In this document: in pieces, positions 4,047 through 50,436 of the stretch
Position numbering within the stretch: position 1 is the stretch's first letter
Layout of the letters: every line of letters begins with the position of its first letter
Source: Candidatus Spechtbacteria bacterium SB0662_bin_43
GTDB taxonomy: Bacteria > Patescibacteriota > Minisyncoccia > Spechtbacterales > 2-12-FULL-38-22
NCBI GenBank assembly: GCA_009839835.1
Contig: VXOY01000010.1
Location: forward strand, 4,025-68,024
Length of the DNA: 64,000 nt
Direction of reading: 5' to 3'
Translations under genes and position numbers: made by a program
The notes under the pieces: generated by a model
The model's database searches: none
What the model saw: only the letters and a program-made list of their open reading frames with translations
Told to the model about the DNA's origin: nothing

Positions 4047-4057
4047 CTCTAATAATA

Positions 4058-4756: not shown

Positions 4757-4823
4757 AATTCGCTCCACAAAGAACCTACGGTACAGCGCTGGATGCAGGA
4801 CGATAGTTCTGTACTTTACTATA

Positions 4824-6065: not shown

Positions 6066-6176
6066 AAACGTAATCAGTAATGTTCAATGATTGAGAATAT
6101 TGGCATATTGTCATCCCTCCATTTTTTTGTTATGATATTTTTGCTGTTATTCATAGTATGAAATAAATTATAGAGT

Positions 6177-6668: not shown

Positions 6669-6852
6669 AGGACATCTATAGGTGCCTGTGTTTTGATATG
6701 AGCACCTTTTCATCACCCATAGATTGATTGTGGTATGTGCTGTGTGTGAGTAATAGTATATTGACTTTTGCACCAGATACTATATTATAGAAGTGAGAAA
6801 TGGTCATTCTCAATTCTTAATACCATATAATTAATGTGCAGAAAATACAGAT

Positions 6853-7224
6853 ATGACTGACGACAAAGAGTTTCTTGAATATATTATAAAGGGCATTGTA
6901 AATAACCCAGACGACGTGATGGTTGAGAGAAAGGTTGATGAACTGGGTGTCCTCCTTACCTTGAAGGTGAATCCTGAAGATATGGGTCAGGTTATTGGCA
7001 AGGGTGGAGCTACTGCCCGTGCGGTCCGTACTCTACTCCGTATTGTTGGAATGAAGAGTAACGCGCGAGTCAATTTAAAAATTGAGGAGCCAGAAGGAAG
7101 CGCTCGTCGCACTTCTCAAGATGCAATGCAAGACAACGCATCAAACGAATCTCCTGAAGCCTCACAACCACAGGAGCAAGACTCAAAGGTTGACATTAAC
7201 GAGGCAATTGGTGACCTTGACTAA
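6853..7224 (+). CDS. KH-domain RNA-binding protein (YlqC/UPF0109 family) with acidic C-terminal tail
   Basis: VIGKGGATARAVRTLL KH GXXG loop; position between rpsP and trmD is the canonical one. Confidence 0.8.
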   Translation: MTDDKEFLEYIIKGIVNNPDDVMVERKVDELGVLLTLKVNPEDMGQVIGKGGATARAVRTLLRIVGMKSNARVNLKIEEPEGSARRTSQDAMQDNASNESPEASQPQEQDSKVDINEAIGDLD

Positions 7225-7236
7225 ATTTTATGTAGC

Positions 7237-7270
7237 AAAAAACCCTGCATCATACACTGCAGGGTTTTTT
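7237..7270. terminator. Rho-independent terminator hairpin (bidirectional type, A-tract / stem / T-tract)
   Basis: aaaaaaccctgca-tcatacac-tgcagggtttttt. Confidence 0.6.
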
Positions 7271-7283
7271 GTTGGCATAACCT

Positions 7284-7973
7284 ATGCAGTTTGATATTTT
7301 TACATTATTCCCCGATATCATTGATTCGTATAAGGGTGAGTCCATCATACGGCGAGCCATAGATGCTGGTGTTTTGCGCGTCCATAGCCATAACATCCGT
7401 GACTGGGCGCACGACAAGCACAGCACGGTTGACAATGTTCCGTACGGAGGTGGAGCAGGCATGGTGATGAAGGTAGAACCAATTTATAGGGCGATATGCG
7501 ATTGCTCGCTGTTTGAAATCAAGACAACAGAGCGTGGACTTGTACATAGCGATAAGCAACGGATTATTTTGTTGTCTGCAAAAGGGGAGCGGTTCACACA
7601 ACAAAAGGCACAAGAATTAGCGCAATACGAACACATTATGTTGATATGTGGGAGGTACGAAGGCGTTGATGAACGAGTTACGACCTATATTGCGGATGAA
7701 GAGATTTCTATTGGTGAGTACGTTTTGACAGGAGGAGAGATCCCCGCGCTCGTTCTTTTGGACGCTGTTGCGCGTCTCCACAAGGGCGTATTGGGGAATG
7801 TTGAGTCGCTCAAAGAGGAGTCGTTTACCACAGGTCACCCAAAGGAGTATCCGCACTACACCAGGCCTGCGGTTTTTTCTCCAAAACCAGGCGTGGAATG
7901 GAAAACACCCGATATTCTTTTGTCGGGGAATCATCAGGAAATTCAAAAGTGGAGGCAACAAGATTCTCGGTAA
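7284..7973 (+). CDS. trmD: tRNA (guanine37-N1)-methyltransferase
   Basis: MQFDIFTLFPDI...VPYGGGAGMVMKVEP TrmD signature. Confidence 0.9.
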   Translation: MQFDIFTLFPDIIDSYKGESIIRRAIDAGVLRVHSHNIRDWAHDKHSTVDNVPYGGGAGMVMKVEPIYRAICDCSLFEIKTTERGLVHSDKQRIILLSAKGERFTQQKAQELAQYEHIMLICGRYEGVDERVTTYIADEEISIGEYVLTGGEIPALVLLDAVARLHKGVLGNVESLKEESFTTGHPKEYPHYTRPAVFSPKPGVEWKTPDILLSGNHQEIQKWRQQDSR

Positions 7974-8508
7974 GAGTGAAGAAGAAAGCGGTATGTTAAT
8001 GGAGGGTACGTATGAAAATCCCACACTTTAATTCAGTGTGGGATTGATAGGAGGTGTGTCTTGGAAGTGAAAGTACGCAGTAGAGGAATCGTTGAGTTTT
8101 TGTACTTGTAGCGTGCCACAGATGATGCACTCCAAGATGAGTTTTGCAATGTCGTAAAACGTAAAGGTGCGACATGTGCACCGTATGCAGGACGTTATTC
8201 CTTCTACTCCTCTGAACATCACTTCTCCTTTCTGGTATCAGTACACTGTATTTATACACTATATTCGATGTAGTATCAATTGTATTGATGGTATGTAGGC
8301 GAAGGGGCGAGTACTGTTTTCAACAATCACATCAATCAATAGTACAAGAGTAGATTGTTCGTATGCAAGACATCAAGGATGTGCAGTGCTGTGTGTGGCA
8401 GGGTTCTTGACTTTATATATTAGTGTGTTATTCTATAGATAGTTCTTGAACACAAGACCTCTGCATGTGTTGTGAATACAGGGGTTTTCAAAAGAAAGGA
8501 AGTTTCTG

Positions 8509-9300
8509 ATGGCTACGAAGGACTATCCTGCATTGAGCAGGGAGCCTTTGCGGGTTCATCACAGGGCTGTCGTGGGATTGAGCGATAAGAACCTACGCGG
8601 ACAGGAGATGATGGACGAGTTCCTCATAGGATCGTTCTGGAGGAGAATCTTTGATGGAGTCAAGGAACCATTGTTTGAGTGCTATGATGAGTACATGACG
8701 TTGGATCTTGTTGTGCTCACGCCACAAGAGGTTGGATTGCACACAGACAATAGGATTTCTTTGTCATCTTTCTTCTCGCACGTTGTGCGCACTTTTCCTG
8801 AATTAGAGCTCGTAAAGCCAGAAGTTGCTTTTCGGGTACAAAGAGACTACGATCTGGAGATTGGGGAGGCACACTATTTTGCGATTCCTCAACCAGGCGT
8901 CATCATGCGTGACTACGATCTTGGTACGCGGGAAATAGGGTTTGGTCTTTCGCACGGAGGCCTACGACTGATGGGTGTGCCGCACTTGCAAAAAGAGAAC
9001 GCCGTGTATCGGATTCTACAACCTGTTCCTCGTTACGACATCCATTGGACTAGACACGATGTCAGGTGGGTGTTTGCGTTGAAGGCGCAGGTTGATATGG
9101 GTGCGACGCCCACTGATGAGAATATTCGCGAGTCCTCTCACCAGAGCAGTGGCAATACTGGTGTTTCGTATGACGCACGGAGTCATTACCAAACAGCGCA
9201 GAATGGTGATGGGTTAATCTTTGATGACAAGTCAACGGAAGAACAGATGGACAGGGATCTTGACGACGCACTGTCATTTCTGAAGAGAGTCCACCGATGA
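8509..9300 (+). CDS. Hypothetical protein, GC-rich (~55%) gene with GAAAGGAAG SD-like leader
   Basis: Clean 263-aa ORF. Composition clearly higher GC than flanks. No recognisable motifs. Confidence 0.55.
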   Translation: MATKDYPALSREPLRVHHRAVVGLSDKNLRGQEMMDEFLIGSFWRRIFDGVKEPLFECYDEYMTLDLVVLTPQEVGLHTDNRISLSSFFSHVVRTFPELELVKPEVAFRVQRDYDLEIGEAHYFAIPQPGVIMRDYDLGTREIGFGLSHGGLRLMGVPHLQKENAVYRILQPVPRYDIHWTRHDVRWVFALKAQVDMGATPTDENIRESSHQSSGNTGVSYDARSHYQTAQNGDGLIFDDKSTEEQMDRDLDDALSFLKRVHR

Positions 9301-9468
9301 CTCCCTGATACGGCAGAATACACATTCTGCCGTTTTTCTTTTTTAATATGCGAATGTAAGTCTGGTTGCAAGGATACAGGTGTTGACAAAATCATATATA
9401 TATATAATCATAGTGGTTCCAGTCATACGATTGGGATAGAGACTGTGCTCAAGAAAGGAGCGTAGGAA

Positions 9469-10590
9469 ATGACAGGTTCGAGCGTGATACGGAGCCAGGG
9501 ACCCAAGCGCTACAATCACTTCACGGGCAGGAGCGTTTTCATCTCCACTGTGCGTGGCGGCCGACCCGACAAGAAAAAGACCAGTGTACAACATCCTGTG
9601 GTGCAACGCGATCCATTCGTTGACCCCCAGGCGTTCGGGAACGAAGATCCAGTGTTTCAGTACACCGATCCTGAAACCCAGGACTGGCTGGTGCAGATCA
9701 TTCCAAACCTGTGGCCCATTCTTTCTCTTGAACGAAAGGAACGATTCGACAGAGATGCGATTATTGGAGAAGGATTTCACGAGGTGGTGATCACAAAAGA
9801 TCCCACCTACTCCTTCGCGGACTTCTCGCAGCAATACACAGAGCTTGTGTTGAAGGCTCTTGCTATGCGGTCAAACGCGATCCTTCGTGAGTGCCCGAGC
9901 ATTAAGGAGATTTCTATCTTCCAGTGCTATGGGTTACAGGCAGGAGGCTCTCAACCCCACCCTCATCTACAGATCTTCGCTCACAACGATGTTTCACCAG
10001 AGGTGAAACATCGCGAGGAGATGATGCTTCTCTTCTGGAAGAAGCACAACATCAATGTGATTGATGCTGTGATACAGGATGCAGAAGAGGATCCAAGTCT
10101 GGTTGTCTACCGCAACAGCAGTTACGTGGTCGTTTGTTCGCACGCACCCTCAGCCGAATACGAGGTTCAGATTCTGCCAACCTACACAGAAAAGACCGCC
10201 TACACGAACCGAGGCTTGAACGCGGAAATGTTGGACGATCAGAGGAGAAGGGATCTTGCTGAGGCACTGAATGTCGCGACTCGCGCACTCAAAATCGCCC
10301 TGAATGATCCTCCGTACAACATCTTGGTTCGTTCCCTTACGAAGGGTATGGCGAACATGATTATTCCTACGGACCAGCATTTTCTCGGATGGTACATTGA
10401 CATTCGTCCCACCTACGGCTACCAGCCGTTTGGGCTCCAGCCGTTACGGGGAGACGATACAGTGACCGTCGAGCCCGAGTACGCAGCAAACGATTTGCGC
10501 CTTGCCTTAAAGCATCCTGATTTCCCAAACAGGGAACAGATGTCGTGGCAAGACCAGTACGCCAACACGATCGCGATGCTGGTTCAGTAG
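9469..10590 (+). CDS. HIT-superfamily GalT-branch nucleotidyltransferase/phosphorylase-like protein (GalT/Apa2-like)
   Basis: GGSQPHPHLQIFA matches the GalT H-x-H-x-Q active-site block (cf. SNPHPHGQIWA). Upstream VQIIPNLWP resembles the (V/I)PNK(F/Y)P block. GC-rich, GAAAGGAG leader. Confidence 0.65.
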   Translation: MTGSSVIRSQGPKRYNHFTGRSVFISTVRGGRPDKKKTSVQHPVVQRDPFVDPQAFGNEDPVFQYTDPETQDWLVQIIPNLWPILSLERKERFDRDAIIGEGFHEVVITKDPTYSFADFSQQYTELVLKALAMRSNAILRECPSIKEISIFQCYGLQAGGSQPHPHLQIFAHNDVSPEVKHREEMMLLFWKKHNINVIDAVIQDAEEDPSLVVYRNSSYVVVCSHAPSAEYEVQILPTYTEKTAYTNRGLNAEMLDDQRRRDLAEALNVATRALKIALNDPPYNILVRSLTKGMANMIIPTDQHFLGWYIDIRPTYGYQPFGLQPLRGDDTVTVEPEYAANDLRLALKHPDFPNREQMSWQDQYANTIAMLVQ

Positions 10591-11231: not shown

Positions 11232-12116
11232 TTATTCCGTATCAGGTATAGGTAGCATTCCTGTGAACGAGAGTTGTGCTGGACCACTCATATACACTGG
11301 TTCACTTTTGTTGTTGGTGCCATCCCATTGCATTTTTAAGTCACCACCTGGCAGCGAAACTGTTGCTTGTTTATCTGAAAGTCCACGAAGTCGCGCAGCT
11401 ACTAATACAGCGCACGCGCCAGACCCGCAGGCGAGCGTGACACCCACTCCGCGCTCCCATACCCGCATTTTGATGTGATGTGGCGATACTATGTTTGCGA
11501 CTTCAAAGTTCGTTTTGTTTGGAAAGTCAGGGTGTGTTTCTACGATTGGACCAATGTCAGTCAGCGGGAAATCGTCTATTGGCATGTCAATGAACAGTAC
11601 TGCGTGCGGGTTTCCCATTCCTATACACGCTAAGTCGTAGGTTGTATTGTTGATTTGTAGTGTATGGTGTATGTCTGGTGATGATTGAGCATTGAGAACA
11701 GGGATGGTCTCTGGGTCTAACACAACAGGCTCCATAGCAACACGTACGCTATCTACAATTGACCCAGACATATGTATCTCTACTTGCACTATACCTGAAC
11801 CAGTTTCAACCGTTATATTTCTGTTTTTTGGTTTGAAATCGGCACGCTCAATGAGATATTTAACAAAACAACGAATTCCATTACCACACATATCGCTATA
11901 TGATCCATCTGCATTTACGATAACCATATGAGCATCAGCATTATTACTATCTGCTGCAATAAGAATTCCATCTGCGCCAATACCAAAGTGACGATCGCAA
12001 ATTTTTGGTGTTATCATCGTCCAGTCTCTATTTAGAAAATGACTGTTGGAGCCCAATGCATCAATCAGTATAAAATCATTACCAATACCCTGAACTTTTG
12101 TGAATGGAATAGACAT
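11232..12116 (-). CDS. dapF: Diaminopimelate epimerase
   Basis: FTKVQGIGNDFILID and MCGNGIRCF catalytic Cys blocks. Confidence 0.9.
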   Translation of the reverse strand: MSIPFTKVQGIGNDFILIDALGSNSHFLNRDWTMITPKICDRHFGIGADGILIAADSNNADAHMVIVNADGSYSDMCGNGIRCFVKYLIERADFKPKNRNITVETGSGIVQVEIHMSGSIVDSVRVAMEPVVLDPETIPVLNAQSSPDIHHTLQINNTTYDLACIGMGNPHAVLFIDMPIDDFPLTDIGPIVETHPDFPNKTNFEVANIVSPHHIKMRVWERGVGVTLACGSGACAVLVAARLRGLSDKQATVSLPGGDLKMQWDGTNNKSEPVYMSGPAQLSFTGMLPIPDTE

Positions 12117-12870: not shown

Positions 12871-15408
12871 ATGGCAAATTCCAAAGAAGCACAATCACGG
12901 ATAAAGATTAACAAGTTTTTAGAAGACGCAGGGTGGCGGTTTTTTGATACAGAAAAAGGTGAGGCAAACATTCGGCTTGAAGCCAGTGTAAAAATAACCC
13001 AACAAGATATTGATGAAATGGGAGAGGATTTTGAGAATACCCAAAGAGGATTTGTAGATTATTTATTGTTGGATGATAAGGGATTTCCTTTTGTTGTCTT
13101 GGAAGCAAAGAGAGAAGGTAAAAATCCATTAGATGGTAAAGAACAAGCACGTAGGTACGCCCAGTCGCAGAATGCCAGGTTTGTTTTACTATCAAATGGC
13201 AATACGCATTACTTTTGGGATTTGGAAAGCGGTAACCCAGAAGTTATTATAGAGTTTCCAAAACAAGAATCATTGTTGCATCGTTCAGGGTTTCAGCCAG
13301 ATAACCAACGGCTATCCAGTGAAAGCGTTAAAGAGGATTATATTGCTTTGACGCAAAATCCAAACTATAAAGAGGATCCTCGTTATCGGGACAAAAGCAC
13401 AAGGGAAGAATATCTCTCTCAGGAGGACTTACGAATTTTACGTCCCTATCAACTCAGAGCAATTCATGCATTACAAAAGAGTGCTGGTGAAGGTAGTACC
13501 AGGTTTCTCTTTGAGATGGCAACAGGTACAGGGAAAACTCTTGTGGCAGGTGCGGTTATAAAACTTTTTTTGAGAACAGGCAACGCGAAACGAATTTTGT
13601 TTTTGGTTGATAGAGTAGAATTAAAAAATCAGGCGTATGATAATTTTAATACTTACTTAAAGAACGATTGCACATCTGTTATTTATAAAAACAACAGAGA
13701 CGACTGGCAGAAGGCAGAGATAGTCATCTCAACTGTTCAGAGTCTTGCTTCTCAAGATAAGTATAAGAAGTTTTCGCCAACTGACTTTGGCTTGGTGATT
13801 TCTGATGAGGCACACCGCTCAATTGGAGGGAGTAATGGGAATTATAGGGCAGTGTTTGAGTATTTTGTCGGATATAAGTTGGGACTCACCGCAACACCAA
13901 AAGATTACTTGAAAAATGTTGATTCACAAAAATTACCTCAAAAAGACCCTCGTGCGTGGGAACGTAGGCAGCTTTTGGATACCTATACGACTTTCGGTTG
14001 TCCAAGCGGTGAACCAACATTTCGTTACACACTAATCAGTGGTGTGAAAGATGAATATCTTATCAATCCTATTGCTGTTGATGCACGAACAGAAATAACC
14101 ACTCAGTTACTTTCAGAAAAGGGCTATGCTATTATTGCTGAGAATGATGAAGGAGAAAAAGAGGAAGGAGTGTTTTTTCATAAAGATTTTGAGAAAAAGT
14201 TTTTCTCAGATAATACTAATAAAGCATTCTGTGGGACGATTATTAAAAATGCTCTGCGAGATCCTATCAGCAGAGAAATTGGCAAGACCATTGTGTTTTG
14301 TGTTAGACAGAGCCACGCTTCTAAGATTACACAGATATTGAATCAAATGGCGGACAAAGTGTGGCCTGGCAAATACAACTCTGACTTTGCGGTACAGGTC
14401 ACATCAAATGTTCCTGATGCTCAACAAATGACGATGAATTTCGCAAACAATAATCTTACAGGACGCACCAATTTTCTCCCTGGTTATAAGTCAAGCAAGA
14501 CAAGAGTATGTGTAACAGTCGGGATGATGACAACAGGATATGACTGCAAGGATATTTTAAATCTTGCGTTGCTTCGTCCTATTTTTTCTCCAACAGACTT
14601 TGTGCAGATTAAGGGACGAGGTACCCGTAAGTTTACCTTCGGGTACAAAAATGAAGATGGGGAAGAGATAAAGAAAGAAAAAGATACATTCAAGATGTTT
14701 GATTTCTTTGCGAACTGTGAGTATTTTGAGGAAAAGTTTGATTATGATGAGGCACTCCAATTGTCAGTTGCACAGAGGAATGGCAGTAGTTTTTCTGCGG
14801 ATGATTTCAGCATCCAAAGTACGATGGACGAGGCAACTACTTATGCTCCTGATACTGTTACTCGGTACAAAGAAAAGCAGATTAGCAGTGCAGGGATGAA
14901 AGTAGATCGTAAATTATTTGAAAAAGCCAAAGAAGAAATTGGAAAGGATAAAGATATTCAAGATGCTGTTATGCAAGAACAGTGGGACAAGGCAATCAAT
15001 ATCACTGTGCATAAGTATCAAGATAAGCCTGAGCTCTATATCAATCTTGATAAACTTCGTCGTAGCGAGAGCTTAGATAGACGATTGACGTGGCGTGAGG
15101 TATTAGAGCGAGTATTTGGATTTGTTGATACCTTTCCATCAAAAGATGAAAAATTAGAGGAAGAATGCGAGAAGTTTATCTCTATTGATAAGCCCAAGAG
15201 TAAGTATGTACCATATATTAAGAATTTTATTAAGGCATACCTTACAGATGAAAGGTTTCATGCAATTATTGAAAACAGAAACTATGGAGAGCTCAATAAC
15301 TACGCGGGTTTTCCAATGTCAGATTTTAAGGCATTAGGAGAAGATTTACGCAAGAAATTACCCGAATACATAAAAGATTATATACCCATCAATCAATATA
15401 AGGAATAA
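12871..15408 (+). CDS. hsdR: Type I restriction enzyme R subunit (compact, 845 aa)
   Basis: N-terminal HsdR_N nuclease MANSKEAQSRIKINKFLEDAGWRF...DYLLLDDKGFPFVVLEAKREG. SF2 motifs EMATGTGKT (I), DEAHRS (II), LGLTATP (III), TTGYDCKD / QIKGRGTRK (V/VI). Confidence 0.85.
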   Translation: MANSKEAQSRIKINKFLEDAGWRFFDTEKGEANIRLEASVKITQQDIDEMGEDFENTQRGFVDYLLLDDKGFPFVVLEAKREGKNPLDGKEQARRYAQSQNARFVLLSNGNTHYFWDLESGNPEVIIEFPKQESLLHRSGFQPDNQRLSSESVKEDYIALTQNPNYKEDPRYRDKSTREEYLSQEDLRILRPYQLRAIHALQKSAGEGSTRFLFEMATGTGKTLVAGAVIKLFLRTGNAKRILFLVDRVELKNQAYDNFNTYLKNDCTSVIYKNNRDDWQKAEIVISTVQSLASQDKYKKFSPTDFGLVISDEAHRSIGGSNGNYRAVFEYFVGYKLGLTATPKDYLKNVDSQKLPQKDPRAWERRQLLDTYTTFGCPSGEPTFRYTLISGVKDEYLINPIAVDARTEITTQLLSEKGYAIIAENDEGEKEEGVFFHKDFEKKFFSDNTNKAFCGTIIKNALRDPISREIGKTIVFCVRQSHASKITQILNQMADKVWPGKYNSDFAVQVTSNVPDAQQMTMNFANNNLTGRTNFLPGYKSSKTRVCVTVGMMTTGYDCKDILNLALLRPIFSPTDFVQIKGRGTRKFTFGYKNEDGEEIKKEKDTFKMFDFFANCEYFEEKFDYDEALQLSVAQRNGSSFSADDFSIQSTMDEATTYAPDTVTRYKEKQISSAGMKVDRKLFEKAKEEIGKDKDIQDAVMQEQWDKAINITVHKYQDKPELYINLDKLRRSESLDRRLTWREVLERVFGFVDTFPSKDEKLEEECEKFISIDKPKSKYVPYIKNFIKAYLTDERFHAIIENRNYGELNNYAGFPMSDFKALGEDLRKKLPEYIKDYIPINQYKE

Positions 15409-15415
15409 TAAAGTT

Positions 15416-15485
15416 AGTTTACATCTCTTGACGAGATATAAACTAAATCGCATTTTAGTTTATATCTATAGGTAAGATGTAAACT
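15416..15485. promoter_or_regulatory. Nested perfect palindrome (A-B-loop-B'-A') in the hsdR / AlbA_2-gene spacer; candidate operator or RNA hairpin
   Basis: agtttacatct(15416-26) ... gatataaactaaa(15435-47) tcgca tttagtttatatc(15454-66) ... agatgtaaact(15475-85). A further gatataaacta copy at ~15558. Confidence 0.4.
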
Positions 15486-15597
15486 AAAATAAAAGATAGT
15501 TTTTGTTGACTGATGAAATCTGAGTTAGGTCGCGATTTAATGTATAGTGATAGGCGTGATATAAACTATTGTCCAAAAATATGCCATAATAAATAGC

Positions 15598-17031
15598 ATG
15601 GATGATATCGTGAATACAATTCTGAATATCCCAGAAGAGACACAAACCATTGAGTTTAAACGTTTAGCTGGCGATAAAGTTGTTCGTAAGATTTTGCAGA
15701 CTATCGTTGCTATGGCAAATACTGATGGCGGAACGATTATCTTAGGCGTTGATGACCCAGAGAAGACAGCATTGAAGGGATGTGATAGGATTTTCGGAGT
15801 TGAAGAGGATAAGGTTTTGCTTGATGAGATTTTGAAAGAGCAGTCAAAAATTAATCCACAACTTCAAGGTATTCAGTTTCGCCATATCAAGGCACAAGGT
15901 GATAAAACAATTGTTTTGATAACAGTTGAAAAATCTAAAGAATCATTAGTCTCATTGAGTAATGATGTTTTTACTCGTCTCAATAAAAGTAATAAAAAAT
16001 TAAACCCACAAGAAATTGTAAAGTGGAGTTATACCAAAGGATTTATAAAGGCGGATAAAGAATTGGTGGATGTGGATTTTGAACTTTTACAGACAAAATA
16101 TTTTGATGTCTGGTGCGGTGCAATGGGTATCTCTGGAGGAACCATCCAAAGCATTTTATCTCAGGCTGGTTTGGCAAAAAAAGGTCAGGAAGAAATCTTG
16201 CGACCAACAAGAGCAGCCGTTCTACTTTTCGCCGAACATCCTACTTACCTAATGGAAATACATTGTACTGTGCGAGTTATACAACTCCGAGGCACATTAG
16301 AACGATTTGAGACTGTTCCTAATTATGTTAGTAAGCCAAAAACTATTGGTGGTCCAATCATAGAAGTAATTCGTAATTCTCACGAGTATGTTTTGAGTTT
16401 ATTGGGGGCAGGTATAGAAATTCATTCTGGTTTTGTTAATACTTTTAAGATTCCCGAACGAGCAGTGAAAGAGGCTATTACGAATGCTGTCATACATCGT
16501 GATTACCGTATTCAAAGAGATGTTGAGATTCGTGTTTTTGAAGATAGAGTTGAGGTATTAAGTCCTGGGCTATTTACTTATAATATAACTGCGAATAATA
16601 TAGGGTTCGTGCGTGCAGATGGTGAGAGGAATGATTTGCTGGTCAAACATCTGCGAGAATTTCCTAATCCACCGAATTTAAACTTCAATGAAGGCGTTCG
16701 TGCAATGAGGGCGGAAATGGATAAGCAAAATTTATACCCTCCGATTTTTATGACATACCCTACATACCCTGACTCTGTGAACGTTATTCTCCTGAACGAA
16801 GAAAGACCGACAGAGTGGGAAAAGGTAAGACTATACCTATCAAGAAATAGGTATATTGATAATAAAACAGCAAGAAACATAACAGGGGTTGTACAAATGC
16901 ATGATATGTCACGTATGCTCAAGAGATGGACAGAGCAAGGATTTTTGGTAAAAATTGATGCCGAGTCTAAGTATTTTAAGGGTACAAAATATAAATTAGC
17001 AAATATTGATGAGATGGGTATAGAGCAGTGA
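15598..17031 (+). CDS. AlbA_2 (Schlafen-like, divergent AAA) + HATPase_c_4-like + wHTH protein embedded in the hsd operon
   Basis: N-terminal ETQTIEFKRLAGDKV...MANTDGGTIILGVDD (AlbA_2/pfam04326-like). C-terminal EAITNAVIHRDY block typical of the RecG-C-terminal-like HATPase_c_4 domain. Stop 17031 sits 10 nt before the hsdM start. Confidence 0.7.
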   Translation: MDDIVNTILNIPEETQTIEFKRLAGDKVVRKILQTIVAMANTDGGTIILGVDDPEKTALKGCDRIFGVEEDKVLLDEILKEQSKINPQLQGIQFRHIKAQGDKTIVLITVEKSKESLVSLSNDVFTRLNKSNKKLNPQEIVKWSYTKGFIKADKELVDVDFELLQTKYFDVWCGAMGISGGTIQSILSQAGLAKKGQEEILRPTRAAVLLFAEHPTYLMEIHCTVRVIQLRGTLERFETVPNYVSKPKTIGGPIIEVIRNSHEYVLSLLGAGIEIHSGFVNTFKIPERAVKEAITNAVIHRDYRIQRDVEIRVFEDRVEVLSPGLFTYNITANNIGFVRADGERNDLLVKHLREFPNPPNLNFNEGVRAMRAEMDKQNLYPPIFMTYPTYPDSVNVILLNEERPTEWEKVRLYLSRNRYIDNKTARNITGVVQMHDMSRMLKRWTEQGFLVKIDAESKYFKGTKYKLANIDEMGIEQ

Positions 17032-17040
17032 GAGTTTTAC

Positions 17041-19512
17041 TTGCAAACCCAAATGCAAGTAAAACTTAAAACCCCATTAAATAGGCAAAAAACAGCATCT
17101 TTACTTGCAAATCACTCAAAATTCACTATGTTAGATGCAGAAACAAAACGACACATTGATGCAGCAAGGCAAGTTCTTGTTGGTAAGGTGCCAGACCCAA
17201 AGGCGCAAGTAGACCAAATTACCACAGCCTTGATTTACAAGTTTATGGACGATATGGACAAAGAGTCGCAGGAGCTTGGTGGTAAGGCACAATTTTTCTC
17301 TGGGGATTTTAGTCAATATTCGTGGACGAAGATTTTAGATAGTAAATTATCTGGACAAGAGCGATTCAATTTGTATAATGAAGCAATTAAGAAGATGCCT
17401 CGCAATGAAAATATACCCCAACTTTTCAGAGATATTTTCAAAGATGCACTTCTACCATATCGCGATTCTGCAACTCTTTCACTGTTCTTGAAAGAGATTG
17501 ATAATTTTACATACGATCATAGCGAGAATCTGGGCGATGCATTTGAATATCTACTCTCTATACTTGGCTCGCAAGGGGACGCAGGTCAATTCCGCACACC
17601 TCGTCATATTATTGATTTTATTGTTGATGTTGTAGATCCAAAAAAGAATGAGACTATTTTGGATCCTGCGTGTGGAACAGCAGGCTTTCTTATATCCGCG
17701 TACAAGCATATTGTTGAAAATAATGATGGCAAGGATAATAAAACAGGAGAATTAACAGATAAAGAAACAACCTTAACACCAGACGAAAAACAGCGACTGG
17801 TCAAGAACGTTGTAGGGTATGATATTTCGCCCGATATGGTGAAGCTATCGTTGGTGAATATGTATCTTCATAAGTTTACCAGTCCGCAGATCTTTGAGTA
17901 CGATACTCTTACCAGCGAATCAAGATGGGATGATCAATTTGATGTAATCCTGGCTAATCCACCATTTATGACACCAAAAGGTGGTATTCGTCCACACAAG
18001 CGATTTTCCGTTCAAGCGAGTCGTTCCGAAGTACTTTTCGTGGATTACATTTTGGAGCATCTTAACTTAAAAGGACGTGCAGGTATTATTGTGCCTGAAG
18101 GGATTATATTCAAAGCAGATAAAGCATATAAATCACTCCGTAAGAAATTGATAGATGATGGATTGGTTGCTGTCGTGAGTTTACCTGCAGGCGTGTTTAA
18201 ACCATACTCAGGCGTAAAAACATCAGTTTTATTTTTTGATAATCAGGTTGCAAAAACAACAGATGAATTATTGTTTATAAAAATAGAAAATGATGGGTAT
18301 GAACTTGGAGACCAGAGGAGAAAAATCAAGGAGAATGATTTACCCGAAGCACTGGAAGTATTACAGCAATGGAAGCAGGGTAAGAAGAAAGAAAGCGAAC
18401 TTGCTTTATGGGTGAAGAAAGAAAAAATCGCAAAAAGCGAGGATTATAGCTTGGTAGGCGATAGATATGGAGAAGTAAAAGAAAACAAAAAGCAAAAATA
18501 TCCAATGGTGGAACTGGGAGAGGTTTGTGGTTTTCAGCGTGGCACAATGATTACGAAGAATATGACAGAAGAAGGCGATGTTCCTGTAATTGCGAGCTCT
18601 AAACGACCTTCGTACTACCACAATCAATCTAATAGACAGCCGCCTACGATTACAATATCATCATCTGGTGATGCTGGTTTTGTCAATTTTTTTGAGATTC
18701 CTATATTTGCATCTGACTGTTTTACGGTAGAACCCTTAGATAAAGATCAAATCAATATCTATTTTCTTTACTCTATACTAAAATCAAAACAAGAGTGTAT
18801 CTATAAACTGCAGAAAGGGGTAGCGCAGAAACATGTGTATCCAAAGGATATATCAACAATCAAGATTCCTCTTCCGCCACTTAAAATTCAACAACAAATC
18901 GTGGAAGAGATTGAAGTAAAGCAAAATGCCATCAATCATGCTCAAGAAATCATCAAAAATCTAGAGAGAGAGAGATTGTATTTTGGTAACGAAATTAGAA
19001 AACTAAAAAATGTAAAATGGGTTGAATTGGGTGAGGTGGTACAGACGATTGTTCCACCAAAAAAGATTAAAAAGAGAGATTTTGCACAAGTGGGAGATTA
19101 TCCAATTATAGATCAGTCACAGAGTCAGATTGCTGGGTGGAGTAGTGATGAATCTGCGGTTGTTAAAATTCAAAATCCTGTGGTAATATTTGGCGATCAC
19201 ACGTGCGCTATAAAATACGCTGATAGGCCGTTTATTCAAGGTGCTGATGGTTGTAAAATACTAGAGGTGTGTAGTAATTTGATGCCTAAATTTTTATTTT
19301 TCTATTTAAAAAATCACCCTATTCAAAAAGAAGGGTATAAGCGCAATTTCACTAGACTCAGGTTACTCAAAGTTCCTCTCCTGTCACATGAAATTCAAAA
19401 ACAACTCGTCGCAGAAGCAGAAAAAGAAGAAGCAATAATCAAAGCAAACCAAACCCTTATTAAAATAATGGAAGATAAGATTGATAAGGTTTTGCGGGAG
19501 GTAGGCAAGTAG
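17041..19512 (+). CDS. Type I R-M methyltransferase-specificity fusion (HsdM N-terminal ~480 aa + full two-TRD HsdS)
   Basis: HsdM motifs DPACGTAGFL (motif I) and ILANPPF (motif IV). S part: two TRDs, each opened by VELGEV, separated by the conserved IPLPPLKIQQQIVEEIE central repeat. Confidence 0.85.
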   Translation: MQTQMQVKLKTPLNRQKTASLLANHSKFTMLDAETKRHIDAARQVLVGKVPDPKAQVDQITTALIYKFMDDMDKESQELGGKAQFFSGDFSQYSWTKILDSKLSGQERFNLYNEAIKKMPRNENIPQLFRDIFKDALLPYRDSATLSLFLKEIDNFTYDHSENLGDAFEYLLSILGSQGDAGQFRTPRHIIDFIVDVVDPKKNETILDPACGTAGFLISAYKHIVENNDGKDNKTGELTDKETTLTPDEKQRLVKNVVGYDISPDMVKLSLVNMYLHKFTSPQIFEYDTLTSESRWDDQFDVILANPPFMTPKGGIRPHKRFSVQASRSEVLFVDYILEHLNLKGRAGIIVPEGIIFKADKAYKSLRKKLIDDGLVAVVSLPAGVFKPYSGVKTSVLFFDNQVAKTTDELLFIKIENDGYELGDQRRKIKENDLPEALEVLQQWKQGKKKESELALWVKKEKIAKSEDYSLVGDRYGEVKENKKQKYPMVELGEVCGFQRGTMITKNMTEEGDVPVIASSKRPSYYHNQSNRQPPTITISSSGDAGFVNFFEIPIFASDCFTVEPLDKDQINIYFLYSILKSKQECIYKLQKGVAQKHVYPKDISTIKIPLPPLKIQQQIVEEIEVKQNAINHAQEIIKNLERERLYFGNEIRKLKNVKWVELGEVVQTIVPPKKIKKRDFAQVGDYPIIDQSQSQIAGWSSDESAVVKIQNPVVIFGDHTCAIKYADRPFIQGADGCKILEVCSNLMPKFLFFYLKNHPIQKEGYKRNFTRLRLLKVPLLSHEIQKQLVAEAEKEEAIIKANQTLIKIMEDKIDKVLREVGK

Positions 19513-19529
19513 TGGCAGGATGATTATTT

Positions 19530-20234
19530 ATGGATTCTGTATATCAAATTTTTGATTATTTACCGATTAGATATCAGATAGACAGCGATTTTGATTATTT
19601 TGAATTTCTCAAAAACTCAGTAGAACAAAATTATCACATAGAGAATTATCATTTTGCAAGCATTGCACTCCACATGGTGTTTATGGGGATTGTATACCAT
19701 CACCTTTATATCTTGACTTGTGAGAGTGGTGGAAGACGAGATGCTCTGTTAAGAGATTCTAAGAAGATTCGTAATCAATACAATAAAAGAGGGAAAGTAT
19801 TGTCTTGGCAAAATTTTTCATCAGAAAATGAGCGTAGTGTTTTTAAATTCTTGAAGACTGTTGGAGCAAAAAATGATATGATTGATCAGTTGAAGCAGTT
19901 AGTTGATCAACGCAATGACTTAGTCCATACCAACGGATCGCTTTTGCAAGATCAGGTGCTTTTCGATGAGAAGGCAAATGACTATTTGCAAGGTATTAAA
20001 AATATCCACTATGTTTGTAGAGAGGAATATAAAAATTTATTTTTGAAGTTCTTGAATGAACTTCAATTTGATATTGAGGATATTCAGGATGCCGAGATGT
20101 ATCTTGAAAATTTCATTCGTAAATATGCTGTTAGCAGAAATTTACTTTCACATCTCGGAGATATAGTGCCAAAGAGTAGATATCTCCAAGGAACCCAATT
20201 ACTGTATAGTATTATTCAGGACAGGGGTTTGTGA
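19530..20234 (+). CDS. Hypothetical 234-aa protein, possible HEPN-like (R-x4-H) Abi-type component; 18 nt after hsdMS stop
   Basis: Soluble, helical-looking sequence. Single R-x4-H motif QRNDLVHT. Operonic spacing with hsdMS. No firm family call. Confidence 0.55.
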   Translation: MDSVYQIFDYLPIRYQIDSDFDYFEFLKNSVEQNYHIENYHFASIALHMVFMGIVYHHLYILTCESGGRRDALLRDSKKIRNQYNKRGKVLSWQNFSSENERSVFKFLKTVGAKNDMIDQLKQLVDQRNDLVHTNGSLLQDQVLFDEKANDYLQGIKNIHYVCREEYKNLFLKFLNELQFDIEDIQDAEMYLENFIRKYAVSRNLLSHLGDIVPKSRYLQGTQLLYSIIQDRGL

Positions 20235-20362
20235 TATAATAAGTGCCAGTCATCTTATCATTAATTTAATACGTTCTTTAAAAGCGATAAATTTATTTTG
20301 CGATATAATAAGAAGATGGTGTGTTATCTAGAGACGACGAGAGATACTAAATTAGAGTCATT

Positions 20363-22081
20363 ATGAGGTATACAAAATTTACAATTCAGAACTATAAGGG
20401 AATAGTTGGTCCGCTTATTGTTGATACTCATAAAATATCCCTCATGCCAATTATTGGAGTCAATGAGTGTGGTAAAACTACAATTTTGCAGGCAATTTTC
20501 GGTTTTGATTATTCTAATGATGTTTTCAATAAGACTGTTCAGCATTTGGAGGATATACATAATTTATATGAAACTAGTGATCAAACTCCCATCATCAGTG
20601 CGGAGATTGAGATAACAAATGATGAAATAAAAGATATTTTGGAAGAATTAGTTAATGATAATCAATGGTCTGATAAGGCACAGGCATATTTAGGATACTG
20701 TAAAGATATAAGTTTTACGTTTGCTATTGATAGAAATATGAGGACACGCAAGTATAATATTAAGTATAGGAAATTTACAGACAAAAATTTTAATCATGTA
20801 TTTGCTAAATCCATTATAGAAAAACTACCTTTCATTCTTTTCTTTGATGATTTTCGTGATAATATAGAAGAAAAAATTGAGATTAAAAAAGATTCTGACG
20901 GTAATCTCAGTGGATGGCTTGCGATAGTAGATCGCCTCTTTCGGGTTGCAGATGAAAATTTTGATATCCTACAGCTACCTAGCCTGGAGGAACGTAAGCA
21001 AAAAACAATTTTGGCCGCAGTAAATAAATTACTTAATGACACTCTAACACAAGAATGGCAGAATTTTAGACTTGATGACAAAGAGGCCCTGGAAATACAA
21101 GTGGACTATAAGCAGGAATCGGAGATGGTGGCGAATGGACAACCCGTACATAGGCACTTTGTGAGGTTTGATGTCGTAGAGAAAGATAAGGATGGCTATA
21201 AACATTTCTTTTTCGTTAGAAATCGTAGCAAGGGATTTTTCTGGTTTTTTAACTTTGTGATGAAATTGGAGTTCAATCCTAAATTAGTAGATAGTGCAGA
21301 AGGTGCAATTTATTTATTGGATGAACCAGGATCGTATCTGCATGCATCCGCACAAACAAAGCTATGCGAGAAATTGAAGTCATTGTCTGGTACCAATATA
21401 GTTTTGTACTGCACCCATTCTCATTATCTTCTTGATCCTAACGTAATACCATTCAACAACATCAAGGTGGCAGAGAAGAATCCCAGAAATTTTGCAATAA
21501 GGTTATTTCCCATTCATCAAGCTAGTGTATCTAGGAAAAATTCCAGATCAGCATTTCAGCCAATCATGGATGCACTCAAGATTAACCCCTTCGCACTAGA
21601 TATTAATCCTAATGAATGTGTGCTGATTGTTGAAGGTATAGATGATCATTATGCTTTTGAGATGTTGAAGGGCGATAGAAACGTTAAAATCCTGCCAGGA
21701 GTAGGAGCAGATTCTATACGGTATTTCATTTCACTAATGATTGCGTGGGGAGTTGATTATAGAGCATTGTGGGATAATGATCCAGTTGGGGCAAAAGCGA
21801 AAAAATCGGCAGGAGAGTTTTTCGGCGAAGTTGAATATAAAGATAAATTTTATTTGCTCCCACACGAAAATACCAAAAAGAAAAAGACCATTCTCCAAGA
21901 TTTATTTGATGGAGATGACATTTCCATCATTAAAAAAGAGCTGAGTTTACCCAAAAATACATCATTTAGTAGAGTTATCCAATCTTTATTTCATTCTGAC
22001 AAAAGACAACATGTTTTAAAGAAAGTATCTAAAAAAACAAAAGATAATTTTAAAAGAGTATTTATGATACTGAGTCTTTAA
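20363..22081 (+). CDS. OLD-family ATP-dependent endonuclease (ABC-type ATPase + Toprim)
   Basis: Walker A GVNECGKTT, Walker B/D-loop AIYLLDEPGSYLHASAQ, H-loop YCTHSHY. C-terminal Toprim VLIVEGIDDHYAFE ... ALWDNDPVG. 572 aa, like P2 Old / GajA. Confidence 0.8.
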   Translation: MRYTKFTIQNYKGIVGPLIVDTHKISLMPIIGVNECGKTTILQAIFGFDYSNDVFNKTVQHLEDIHNLYETSDQTPIISAEIEITNDEIKDILEELVNDNQWSDKAQAYLGYCKDISFTFAIDRNMRTRKYNIKYRKFTDKNFNHVFAKSIIEKLPFILFFDDFRDNIEEKIEIKKDSDGNLSGWLAIVDRLFRVADENFDILQLPSLEERKQKTILAAVNKLLNDTLTQEWQNFRLDDKEALEIQVDYKQESEMVANGQPVHRHFVRFDVVEKDKDGYKHFFFVRNRSKGFFWFFNFVMKLEFNPKLVDSAEGAIYLLDEPGSYLHASAQTKLCEKLKSLSGTNIVLYCTHSHYLLDPNVIPFNNIKVAEKNPRNFAIRLFPIHQASVSRKNSRSAFQPIMDALKINPFALDINPNECVLIVEGIDDHYAFEMLKGDRNVKILPGVGADSIRYFISLMIAWGVDYRALWDNDPVGAKAKKSAGEFFGEVEYKDKFYLLPHENTKKKKTILQDLFDGDDISIIKKELSLPKNTSFSRVIQSLFHSDKRQHVLKKVSKKTKDNFKRVFMILSL

Positions 22082-22249
22082 TGTTTGTCTTGTGGAATAC
22101 GTGTGGAAGGATTGGGTATTGTATATTTTGGTGGTGTGATGTATAATGATTGAACCGAAATGTACAAGGTATATTTTGGTGTTCTTTGAAAATTGAATAC
22201 GAGTAAATAGTTATACAACAACCATTTATAGTTGTTTCGAATATTTTTT

Positions 22250-23707
<1,458 letters not shown>

Positions 23708-24031
23708 ACATTTTTTTGTAGTTTTTTTCTTTTCTCTATCTTTTTTGAAAAGAGGAAAATGAAGTTGTCGACCAGATAGTATGTTTTGTGTAGTAGTGAT
23801 TTTCCATTGTTCTTTGATGATGGAATTTGATCTACGAACACAACACGTACAACAGCGATGAGGCAGGAATGGTACTTTCATATTCGTATGAAAGTACCAT
23901 TCCTTGCCTTGTCTCTGTATGCTGAAATGAGGGAAAGCATTTTCTTTCTCTGCTTGTAGGCAAGCTACACAGGAGTATGAACCTGTATTTCATATAATAT
24001 TCGGAACAACTATGAGTGGTTGTGTAACCTC

Positions 24032-24061
24032 AAAAAACCCTGATTTTATCAGGGTTTTTTG
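24032..24061. terminator. Bidirectional Rho-independent terminator
   Basis: caaaaaaccctga-tttta-tcagggtttttt. Confidence 0.6.
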
Positions 24062-24144
24062 AGAACAGAGATTTATTTGATAGAGTGCAATATGCCCAAA
24101 TTATATTTTGGTGTTTTCAGAAAGGTAGTATATGATAAATGTGA

Positions 24145-34056: not shown

Positions 34057-34512
34057 ATGGGAAAAAGCGTCCGTTATGATACATCCTTTGGCGTTGTCCC
34101 TGTGTTGCAAGAGCAAGCAGAGTGGTATTTTCTTCTCATACAACACCAGACAAGCGACCCTTCCGAAAAAGGGCACTGGTCATTTCCAAAGGGACATAAG
34201 GAGAGTGGCGAAACAGACATTGAAACAGCAGTTCGGGAATTGAAAGAGGAAACAGGCATCGTTGATATGAGGCTGCACGATGAATGTGTTTTTGAGGAGC
34301 GTTACTCGTTTTGTGTTGATGGCATAGATGTGTATAAAACGGTAGTGTATTTTTTGTGCGTTGTAAAAAATCGCAACGTCGCTATTCAGATAGACGAAGT
34401 TGCAGACTATCAATGGGTTGCGTACGAAGACGCCTTACAAAAAGCGTCTTACGATAACACGCGAAACATTATTACGCAGGTGAATCGTGTTTTGCGCACA
34501 GGAAGTTTTTAA
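34057..34512 (+). CDS. NUDIX hydrolase
   Basis: Nudix box GHWSFPKGHKESGETDIETAVRELKEETGI. Confidence 0.85.
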   Translation: MGKSVRYDTSFGVVPVLQEQAEWYFLLIQHQTSDPSEKGHWSFPKGHKESGETDIETAVRELKEETGIVDMRLHDECVFEERYSFCVDGIDVYKTVVYFLCVVKNRNVAIQIDEVADYQWVAYEDALQKASYDNTRNIITQVNRVLRTGSF

Positions 34513-50286: not shown

Positions 50287-50436
50287 GTGGTTGCCGCGTC
50301 ATTGAAGCACAGAATCAGATAACAGGGGTATTGACAAAATAGTAAAAGTATATTATAGGAAAGGTGCAGATGCGTCACTGCATTATAAAAGCGCGCAAGA
50401 AACCAGTGAGTCGGGTCAGCAAGAAAGGATACAGCA

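What the first reader, a model, noticed from the sequence alone, without database searches (positions are those of the whole stretch)
19530..22081. Candidate two-gene module: small HEPN-like (R-x4-H) protein + single-polypeptide OLD-family ATPase-Toprim nuclease
Seen in sequence: the 572-aa protein has every hallmark of OLD/GajA/AriA-type nucleases (GVNECGKTT, LLDEP, THS H-loop, VEGIDD and DND Toprim acidic residues).

It is not Gabija, because no UvrD-like GajB follows; the next feature is the 16S gene. It differs from canonical two-gene PARIS in that the ATPase and Toprim are fused and the upstream partner is a 234-aa non-ATPase protein.

That partner carries one R-x4-H motif (QRNDLVHT), as in HEPN RNases of the Abi_2 (AbiD/AbiF) type, but this is a single short motif and weak evidence. 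It could instead be a standalone class-1 OLD with an unrelated neighbour, or a fused-PARIS variant.
Basis: inference. Interest (0 to 1): 0.7.

Follow-up and report, generated by a model that had tools for sequence, protein, structure and literature searches.

The report
Restriction-linked HEPN gene beside standalone OLD nuclease
The two genes are real and correctly identified as a HEPN-type protein and an OLD-type nuclease, but they are not a dedicated pair: the small HEPN gene belongs to the restriction-modification operon upstream of it, and the OLD nuclease is an independent single-gene defence gene that happens to sit next door.

Summary

The proposed two-gene module is not supported.
- In all 21 homologue loci with readable upstream sequence, from several phyla and down to about 24% identity, the HEPN gene follows a fused hsdM-hsdS gene. 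It usually follows hsdR as well, often with a gap of 17 nt or less or an overlap.
- None of the 26 distinct HEPN-family loci contains an OLD relative.
- OLD orthologues (46-66% identical) at 8 independent loci never have a HEPN neighbour. They lie among housekeeping genes or beside unrelated R-M systems.
- Their best solved-structure match is the Class 1 OLD of Thermus scotoductus.

The region 12.9-22.1 kb is a low-GC defence island in a Candidatus Spechtbacteria genome. It holds a type I-like R-M operon (hsdR, an AlbA_2 gene, hsdMS, HEPN) and a separate Class 1 OLD. The HEPN protein is most likely a PrrC-like latent RNase backing up the R-M system; this step is inferred. It is a new member of a known kind and of modest interest.

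The parts
12871..15408 (+). hsdR: type I restriction subunit with an N-terminal nuclease and an SF2 helicase, EcoAI-like, 845 aa
   Evidence: Pfam ResIII 1.6e-38, HSDR_N 3.7e-8. PADLOC REase_I 4e-60. NCBIfam restrict_EcoAI 9e-75, below its cutoff. It is 51-68% identical to the HsdR of HEPN-family loci.
15598..17031 (+). Variable cargo gene between hsdR and hsdMS: AlbA_2/Schlafen plus HATPase_c_4 protein, 477 aa
   Evidence: Pfam SLFN_AlbA_2 8e-18, HATPase_c_4 4e-10. In related loci this slot holds KilA-N, RhuM, ORF6N or nothing.
17041..19512 (+). hsdMS: fused N6-adenine methyltransferase and specificity subunit with two target-recognition domains, 823 aa, TTG start
   Evidence: Pfam N6_Mtase 2.5e-56, Methylase_S 1.7e-28 in 2 stretches. 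PADLOC MTase_I 4e-101 and Specificity_I 9e-41.
19530..20234 (+). HEPN-family protein, 234 aa. It is the conserved 3'-terminal gene of the hsdR-hsdMS operon type and a predicted latent RNase.
19911..19928 (+). RNDLVH (R128-H133): the HEPN R-x4-H catalytic motif
   Evidence: R128 and H133 invariant, N129 nearly invariant in 61 members. Coordinates.
20235..20362 (.). 128-nt spacer between the HEPN and OLD genes, containing two GATATAATAAG boxes (extended -10-like)
   Evidence: Read directly. It suggests a separate promoter for the OLD gene; this is inference only, and the consensus scan did not list it.
20363..22081 (+). [quoted passage not shown]
   Evidence: 778 homologues, full-length at 46-66% identity. 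A profile of 41 homologues finds TsOLD 6P74 at 2.8e-8, ahead of GajA at 1.7e-3 and AriA at 0.03. For the AF2 model (pLDDT 84), the top Foldseek hit is 6P74 at 4.5e-13.
20456..20482 (+). Walker A (GVNECGKTT)
   Evidence: invariant; aligns to the TsOLD Walker A.
21314..21328 (+). Walker B (LLDEP)
21413..21421 (+). H-loop (THS)
21629..21646 (+). Toprim glutamate motif (VEGIDD)
   Evidence: aligns to LLVEGYGD of TsOLD.
21773..21781 (+). Toprim DxD motif (DND)
22246..23718 (+). 16S rRNA gene; right-hand boundary of the low-GC island
   Evidence: Rfam SSU_rRNA_bacteria, 1424 bits. GC rises from 0.32-0.39 to 0.47.

Best explanation
Window 12.9-22.1 kb is a horizontally acquired, low-GC defence island in a Candidatus Spechtbacteria (CPR) genome. 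It lies between dapF and the 16S rRNA gene and holds two independent systems.

**System 1: a type I-like R-M operon.** The gene order is hsdR, a variable cargo gene (AlbA_2), a fused hsdM-hsdS, and a 234-aa HEPN gene. The HEPN protein belongs to an unnamed HEPN family that is conserved as the last gene of this operon type.

By analogy with PrrC and EcoprrI, I infer the following mechanism. The HEPN protein is a latent RNase that probably dimerises to form a composite R-x4-H active site. The R-M complex keeps it silent. It is released when a phage disables restriction. It then cuts tRNA or other RNA and stops translation, so the infection aborts.

**System 2: a single-gene Class 1 OLD nuclease.** It has an ABC ATPase and a Toprim domain, and probably its own promoter. 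It is expected to act as a homodimeric, metal-dependent DNA nickase or exonuclease against phage DNA replication, as shown for P2 Old, TsOLD and Vc OLD.

**Shown here:** domain identities, the HEPN fold, motif invariance, and the gene-neighbourhood statistics.

**Inferred:** RNase activity, gating by the R-M complex, and the independence of OLD function.
For: **HEPN identity**
- AF2 model: pLDDT 94.3.
- R128 and H133 are invariant.
- 19 of 61 family members hit Pfam HEPN_RiboL-PSP, best 4.4e-6.

**Linkage to the R-M operon**
- hsdMS lies upstream on the same strand in 21 of 21 loci with readable upstream sequence. This includes members only 24-31% identical and a cultured Paracoccus plasmid.
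- At 14 related loci, as in the window itself, the two genes are 17 nt or less apart or overlap.
- Downstream neighbours vary: FAD oxidase, SIR2+HerA, PIN, transposases, recombinases.

**No linkage to OLD**
- The OLD-clade HMM finds only the window's own gene among the HEPN loci.
- The HEPN HMM finds nothing in the OLD loci.

**OLD as a single-gene system**
- Orthologues sit between guaA and dnaE, beside groES or tonB, or beside DpnII-type, HpaII-type and hsdM/hsdS systems.
- The best solved relative is the Class 1 TsOLD.

**Island**
- GC is 0.32-0.40 inside against about 0.44-0.49 in the flanks.

**Literature**
- At least 16 HEPN clades are linked to R-M systems, and the PrrC analogy has been proposed for them (PMC3710099).
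- Class 1 OLD is defined as a single gene, and one is shown to defend Vibrio cholerae as a DNA nickase (PMC10568477; PMC12392090).
Against: - No biochemical data exist for this HEPN family.
- Its Pfam HEPN scores are below the gathering threshold (18.7 against 28.4 bits).
- PrrC carries its own ABC-ATPase regulatory domain, which this protein lacks, so the gating mechanism may differ.
- The same R-M backbone on E. coli IncF plasmids carries a TrlF AAA-like ATPase instead of the HEPN gene. HEPN is therefore an optional accessory, not a core subunit.
- The loci were found with one conserved peptide pattern, so they over-represent close relatives. Only three distant members were checked.
- OLD orthologues lie beside R-M genes in 4 of 9 independent loci, so some functional interplay with R-M systems in general cannot be excluded.
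Confidence: 0.75

Rival explanations
1. The HEPN protein and the OLD nuclease form a dedicated two-gene defence system, a fused-PARIS-like or novel OLD class, in which the HEPN protein is the partner or effector of the ATPase-Toprim protein.
For: The genes are adjacent on the same strand with a 128-nt spacer. Both are defence-type nucleases. PADLOC AriA models hit the ATPase half at 1.3e-15.
Against: - 0 of 26 distinct HEPN loci contain an OLD relative.
- 0 of 8 independent OLD-orthologue loci contain a HEPN-family gene.
- The closest OLD orthologues (64-66% identical) follow DpnII-type or HpaII-type R-M systems or an unrelated 246-aa protein.
- The HEPN gene is tightly coupled to hsdMS instead.
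- AriA similarity is limited to the generic ABC ATPase. The Toprim half matches OLD-like_TOPRIM and TsOLD.
Confidence: 0.04
2. The HEPN gene is a selfish toxin or Abi gene that hitch-hikes at the 3' end of R-M operons. It is a stand-alone toxin with an unrecognised antitoxin and has no functional connection to the R-M enzyme.
For: HEPN toxins are common in TA and Abi modules (PMC3710099). Other cargo genes such as KilA-N, RhuM and AlbA_2 insert freely into these operons. One family member is fused to TIR. L038 has hsdMS plus HEPN and no hsdR nearby.
Against: - The position directly after hsdMS is kept over a 24-48% identity range and across several phyla.
- At 14 related loci, as in the window, the gap is 17 nt or less or the genes overlap, which suggests translational coupling.
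- No conserved small antitoxin-like ORF accompanies the HEPN gene.
Confidence: 0.12
3. The HEPN protein works in trans with interchangeable neighbouring ABC-type ATPases. Together they reconstitute a split PrrC/RloC-like ATPase-HEPN anticodon nuclease inside R-M loci.
For: PrrC and RloC are ABC-ATPase plus HEPN fusions linked to type I R-M (PMC3710099). Three loci have an ABC-type ATPase within two genes of the HEPN gene: OLD in the window, AAA_13 in L010, and AAA_21+RloB in L009.
Against: Most loci have no ATPase near the HEPN gene. The three ATPases are unrelated subfamilies. The OLD clade is found mostly without any HEPN gene.
Confidence: 0.07

Closest known systems
PrrC / EcoprrI (and RloC): a type I R-M-linked HEPN anticodon nuclease
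   Same: A HEPN nuclease gene is embedded in, and co-oriented with, a type I R-M operon. The R-x4-H motif is conserved. The predicted role is a second line of defence that fires when restriction is neutralised (PMC3710099).
   Different: The 234-aa protein has no ABC-ATPase regulatory domain. It shows no detectable sequence similarity to PrrC or RloC; its nearest Pfam family is HEPN_RiboL-PSP. The R-M here has a fused HsdM-HsdS. The substrate and the activating signal are unknown.
R-M-associated HEPN clades of Anantharaman et al. 2013 (at least 16 clades), and Pfam HEPN_RiboL-PSP (PF18735)
   Same: The fold and motif are the same, and there is a conserved gene neighbourhood with R-M genes. 19 of 61 family members give sub-threshold to weak hits to PF18735.
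   Different: The window protein scores below the Pfam gathering threshold (18.7 against 28.4 bits). NCBI annotates its relatives as hypothetical proteins. PADLOC has no model for it. I could not establish whether it equals one of the 16 published clades.
Class 1 OLD nucleases (P2 Old, Thermus scotoductus OLD 6P74, Vibrio cholerae Vc OLD)
   Same: [quoted passage not shown] It has no conserved partner gene. TsOLD is the best match by sequence profile and by fold. All catalytic motifs are intact.
   Different: Similarity to solved or characterised members is very low: about 13% identity in the Foldseek alignment, and single-sequence phmmer finds nothing. The gene is encoded in a CPR genome. In 4 of 9 loci this clade lies next to R-M genes, whereas the review describes Class 1 genes as not being near other defence genes (PMC10568477).
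Gabija (GajA/GajB) and PARIS (AriA/AriB)
   Same: They share the ABC-ATPase fold and, for GajA, the Toprim domain.
   Different: There is no UvrD-like GajB next to the gene. The ATPase and Toprim are fused, and the Toprim is OLD-like (Pfam OLD-like_TOPRIM). AriA hits cover only the ATPase.

Membership tests
HEPN superfamily | All-alpha, four-helix up-and-down bundle core | tested here: met
HEPN superfamily | Conserved R-x4-6-H motif | tested here: met
   RNDLVH at residues 128-133. R128 and H133 are invariant and N129 nearly invariant in 61 members.
HEPN superfamily | Metal-independent RNase activity | not testable with these tools
   Needs biochemistry.
Pfam HEPN_RiboL-PSP (PF18735) | Score at or above the gathering threshold (28.4 bits) | tested here: not met
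   18.7 bits, E 1.7e-3. 19 of 61 relatives hit at E 0.01 or better, best 4.4e-6. It is a distant relative, not a member by Pfam's rule.
   No Abi_2 hit for the window protein or for any of the 61 relatives.
PrrC/RloC anticodon nucleases | N-terminal ABC-ATPase domain fused to a C-terminal HEPN domain | tested here: not met
   The 234-aa protein has no NTPase domain.
PrrC/RloC anticodon nucleases | Genetic linkage to a type I R-M locus | tested here: met
   21 of 21 informative loci.
OLD family nucleases | N-terminal ABC ATPase with Walker A, Walker B and H-loop | tested here: met
OLD family nucleases | C-terminal Toprim domain with a conserved Glu and DxD | tested here: met
   OLD-like_TOPRIM 2e-3, below its cutoff of 23.2 bits. 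E424, D428, D471 and D473 are invariant. The region aligns to the TsOLD Toprim. The top Foldseek hit is 6P74 at 4.5e-13.
Class 1 OLD | Single gene with no conserved partner | tested here: met
   Eight independent orthologue loci have unrelated neighbours. The reciprocal HMM tests are negative.
Class 2 OLD (Gabija) | Adjacent UvrD/PcrA/Rep-like helicase GajB | tested here: not met
   No such gene lies in the window or next to the orthologues.
Class 3 OLD (retron) | Adjacent reverse transcriptase and msr/msd ncRNA | tested here: not met
   No RT ORF or retron RNA lies near 20-22 kb. An RT in L035 is 4 kb away, within an R-M locus.
Class 4 OLD (PARIS) | Separate AriA ATPase and AriB (DUF4435-type Toprim), or their fusion | tested here: not met
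   AriA models match only residues 1-356. The Toprim matches OLD-like_TOPRIM and TsOLD. AriA in the PDB scores E 0.03 against 2.8e-8 for TsOLD. No formal phylogeny was run.
Type I restriction-modification | HsdR (nuclease plus SF2 helicase), HsdM (N6-adenine methyltransferase) and HsdS (two target-recognition domains) | tested here: met
   M and S are fused in one 823-aa polypeptide, which is atypical.

The most novel reading that the evidence does not exclude
The HEPN protein is a minimal PrrC analogue without an ATPase. It is gated by the fused HsdM-S enzyme and can recruit whichever ABC-type ATPase lies beside it as a trans-acting regulator or co-effector: OLD here, AAA_13 or AAA_21+RloB elsewhere. 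On this reading the OLD and HEPN genes in this CPR genome do cooperate, although they did not co-evolve as a pair.
Probability: 0.07. Interest if true: 0.6.

Novelty: new member of a known kind. Interest (0 to 1): 0.3.

Why it matters
The finding removes a false lead: there is no new HEPN-OLD defence system or fused-PARIS class here.

It also defines something useful. An unnamed HEPN family of about 240 aa has 272 representative clusters. It is consistently the last gene of hsdR/fused-hsdMS type I R-M operons in Patescibacteria, Deltaproteobacteria/Desulfobacterales MAGs and a Paracoccus plasmid. No curated family model tested (Pfam, NCBIfam, PADLOC) reaches its threshold for the protein.

If it is a PrrC-like fail-safe RNase without an ATPase domain, it would be a simple model for how R-M complexes gate a suicide nuclease. 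The related backbone on E. coli IncF plasmids and the cultured Paracoccus example make this testable.

The OLD gene adds a well-populated and very divergent Class 1 clade. This clade often lies beside R-M systems, which bears on the open question of how Class 1 OLDs are triggered.

Tried and rejected
- **Word-indexed search, 234-aa protein.** It found only one homologue. The exhaustive HMMER search was needed to reveal the family.
- **Sequence searches against PDB chains.** The HEPN family profile found nothing meaningful. Single-sequence phmmer with OLD found nothing; only a 41-sequence profile reached TsOLD.
- **Foldseek, HEPN model against the PDB.** No hit below E 0.6. The AFDB50 library was unavailable.
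- **The search for related loci with the 61-sequence alignment.** It failed for lack of a conserved stretch. A 9-sequence alignment worked.
- **Viral contigs.** No HEPN-family member. Only ATPase-only OLD relatives.
- **The 246-aa protein directly upstream of the OLD orthologue in L005.** Tested as a possible diverged HEPN partner. It shows no similarity and no Pfam hit.
- **Promoter and terminator scan, and repeat search, around the genes.** Nothing decisive on operon boundaries or insertion scars.
- **MADS.** Considered because mad2, mad3 and mad5 models gave hits. Rejected because all scores are far below the cutoffs and the hits reflect generic MTase, S-subunit and ABC-ATPase homology.
- **Literature searches.** Searches for this specific HEPN family or for RloA/RloB returned nothing directly relevant.
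Full report
**1. What is there**

The window comes from a Candidatus Spechtbacteria (CPR) metagenome-assembled genome; the self-hit is named.

Five genes lie on the + strand between dapF (11232-12116, minus strand) and a 16S rRNA gene (22246-23718):

| Coordinates | Product | Evidence |
|---|---|---|
| 12871-15408 | HsdR-type restriction subunit | ResIII 1.6e-38, HSDR_N; PADLOC REase_I 4e-60 |
| 15598-17031 | AlbA_2/Schlafen + HATPase_c_4 protein | Pfam, |
| 17041-19512 | Fused HsdM-HsdS | N6_Mtase 2.5e-56, two Methylase_S stretches; PADLOC MTase_I 4e-101 |
| 19530-20234 | The 234-aa protein | see section 2 |
| 20363-22081 | The 572-aa protein | see section 2 |

The block has GC 0.32-0.40 against about 0.44-0.49 on either side, so it looks like an acquired defence island.

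**2.

*The 572-aa protein.*
- All quoted OLD motifs are present at the expected positions.
- They are invariant among 41 homologues.
- Family hits: Pfam AAA_15 1.2e-15, AAA_21 4.8e-8, OLD-like_TOPRIM 2e-3; PADLOC Old 8.2e-17.
- A profile of the clade finds the Class 1 OLD of Thermus scotoductus (6P74) at 2.8e-8. Walker A, Walker B, H-loop, the Toprim Glu and DxD all align. GajA scores 1.7e-3 and AriA 0.03.
- An AF2 model (pLDDT 84.3) has 6P74 as its top Foldseek hit at 4.5e-13, followed by GajA.

*The 234-aa protein.*
- It gives only weak, sub-threshold HEPN hits: RiboL-PSP-HEPN 1.7e-3, CARF_HEPN, HepT.
- The exhaustive HMMER search shows it belongs to a real family, with 272 representatives at E 1e-3 or better and 103 at 1e-10 or better.
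- In 61 members with 18-41% identity to the window protein, H48, M52, E101, R128 and H133 are invariant and N129 and G136 nearly so. This is a conserved R-N-x3-H motif.
- Nineteen of the 61 members hit Pfam HEPN_RiboL-PSP, best 4.4e-6. Others hit further HEPN families.
- The AF2 model is very confident (pLDDT 94.3, pTM 0.91) and all-alpha.

I accept the HEPN assignment.

**3. The two genes are not a module**

*Loci that encode HEPN-family members.* I collected them through the look-up of encoding contigs, the genome and metagenome scans, and the plasmid collection.
- In every locus with readable upstream sequence, a fused hsdMS gene lies upstream on the same strand. These are L001, L009, L010, L012-L016, L018, L020-L023, L025-L028, L030, L036, L038 and L041, which makes 21 of 21.
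- Where the contig reaches far enough, hsdR usually lies further upstream.
- The set includes members only 24-31% identical to the window protein (L036, L038, Paracoccus plasmid pPZ02). It spans Patescibacteria, Deltaproteobacteria/Desulfobacterales and Alphaproteobacteria.
- At 14 related loci the HEPN gene starts 17 nt or less after hsdMS or overlaps it, and in the window the gap is 17 nt. In the others, one or two cargo genes intervene: Hypoth_Ymh, AlbA_2, AAA_13, and unknowns.
- Genes downstream of the HEPN gene are unrelated from locus to locus. They include FAD oxidase, SIR2+HerA, PIN, transposases, recombinases, PD-(D/E)XK, an AAA_33 kinase and AAA_21+RloB.
- An HMM of the OLD clade finds no hit in any of these loci except the window's own gene.

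*Loci that encode OLD orthologues.* The OLD protein has hundreds of full-length orthologues at 46-66% identity. Eight independent loci show these contexts:

| Locus | Context |
|---|---|
| L002 | After a DpnII-type R-M system |
| L004 | After an HpaII-type R-M system plus Vsr |
| L005 | After an unrelated 246-aa protein |
| L007 | Between guaA and dnaE |
| L033, L034 | Among housekeeping genes |
| L035 | Upstream of an hsdM/hsdS locus |

The eighth locus, L008, repeats the guaA-dnaE context of L007 in a different sample.

The HEPN-family HMM finds nothing in any of these loci. There is no GajB, retron or AriB partner. By the neighbourhood definition used in the field (PMC10568477; PMC12392090), this is a Class 1 OLD.

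The 128-nt spacer upstream of the OLD gene contains two GATATAAT boxes. This is compatible with a separate promoter, but that is inference only.

**4. How it most likely works**

*HEPN gene.* It is best read as the accessory last gene of the R-M operon.
- Anantharaman et al. reported at least 16 HEPN clades in conserved neighbourhoods with R-M systems. By analogy with PrrC and EcoprrI, they proposed that the RNase is held inactive by the R-M enzyme and released when a phage neutralises restriction (PMC3710099).
- The invariant Arg and His argue that this family is catalytically active.
- Its tight coupling to hsdMS suggests that HsdMS is the gatekeeper.
- Unlike PrrC, it has no ATPase domain, so the switch must differ in detail.
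- On E. coli IncF plasmids, a related hsdR and methylase backbone (49% identity) carries a TrlF AAA-like ATPase in place of the HEPN gene. The third gene is therefore a swappable accessory.

*OLD protein.* It is expected to act alone as a dimeric, metal-dependent DNA nickase or exonuclease that blocks phage replication, as shown for other Class 1 members.

None of these activities was or could be tested here.

**5. Rivals**

- The dedicated HEPN-OLD module is essentially refuted by the reciprocal neighbourhood tests.
- A free-riding HEPN toxin unrelated to R-M function is possible. It is disfavoured by the conserved position and by the lack of a conserved antitoxin ORF.
- A looser model has the HEPN protein cooperating in trans with whichever ABC-type ATPase lies nearby: OLD here, AAA_13 in L010, AAA_21+RloB in L009. 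This cannot be excluded, but most loci have no such ATPase.

**6. Novelty and score**

- Both components belong to known kinds: R-M-linked HEPN RNases and Class 1 OLD nucleases.
- The HEPN family is uncharacterised and uncovered by curated models. Its association with fused-hsdMS type I systems is very consistent. This is a useful but incremental result.
- The proposed new two-gene system does not exist.
- Interest is 0.3, and the novelty class is a new member of a known kind.

**Limits**

- The related loci were found through a single conserved peptide pattern plus a few look-ups, so close relatives are over-represented.
- No formal OLD phylogeny was run.
- The PrrC-like mechanism is an analogy, not a result.

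Noticed in passing
window 22160-24123: The 16S rRNA gene (22246-23718) has no 23S or 5S gene anywhere in the 64-kb window, so the rRNA genes are unlinked. It is bracketed by a 28-nt inverted repeat (22218-22245 / 23996-24023, 89% complementary) that looks like a processing stem. It is also bracketed by a 32-nt direct repeat (22160-22191 / 24092-24123).
   Followed up: partly
window 34285-34377: ARAGORN calls a 93-nt tRNA-Ile(GAT) here. The Rfam tRNA model does not report it at the gathering threshold. It may be a false positive or an unusually long or intron-containing tRNA.
   Followed up: no
window 15414-15488: Two tandem 34-nt hairpin-forming repeats (79% identical) lie between hsdR and the AlbA_2 gene. 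One scores as terminator-like on the minus strand.
   Followed up: no
window 15598-17031; L015 8942-9436; L030 9545-10624: AlbA_2/Schlafen-domain genes recur inside or next to these hsdR-hsdMS-HEPN operons, in three loci. The slot between hsdR and hsdMS holds KilA-N, RhuM or ORF6N in other loci.
   Followed up: partly
L039 7001-8326; L040 7001-8332 (IMG/VR viral contigs): These phage contigs encode 441-443-aa relatives of the OLD ATPase half only (34-36% identity to residues 1-360). They have no Toprim domain.
   Followed up: partly
L002, L004, L035 and window 12871-22081: Orthologues of this Class 1 OLD lie directly beside R-M genes in 4 of 9 independent loci: type I here, DpnII-type, HpaII-type plus Vsr, and hsdM/hsdS. 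This is at odds with the review's statement that Class 1 OLDs are not near other defence genes.
   Followed up: partly
protein P0212 (538 aa): One member of the HEPN family carries a C-terminal TIR domain (TIR_2 1.5e-15). This is a HEPN-TIR fusion.
   Followed up: no
L042 (E. coli IncF plasmid NZ_CP074705.1) 3424-10972: A 49%-identical hsdR-like helicase and N6 methylase backbone, present on 54 E. coli plasmids, carries a 951-aa 'TrlF family AAA-like ATPase' where the HEPN gene sits in the other loci.
   Followed up: partly
L041 (Paracoccus zhejiangensis plasmid pPZ02, NZ_CP025432.1) 3841-9711: This is an example from a cultured organism of the hsdR, hsdMS and HEPN trio. The HEPN gene is annotated as a hypothetical protein (WP_101754819.1) and overlaps the methylase gene by 4 nt.
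   Followed up: yes
L010 9001-9477 / L024 1668-2361: The HEPN gene in this locus is called as only 158 aa, yet tblastn similarity continues to residue 230. This suggests a frameshift or pseudogene. It follows an AAA_13 ATPase gene.
   Followed up: no
window 50001-52000: A local high-GC patch of 0.53-0.57 stands against a background of about 0.45.
   Followed up: no
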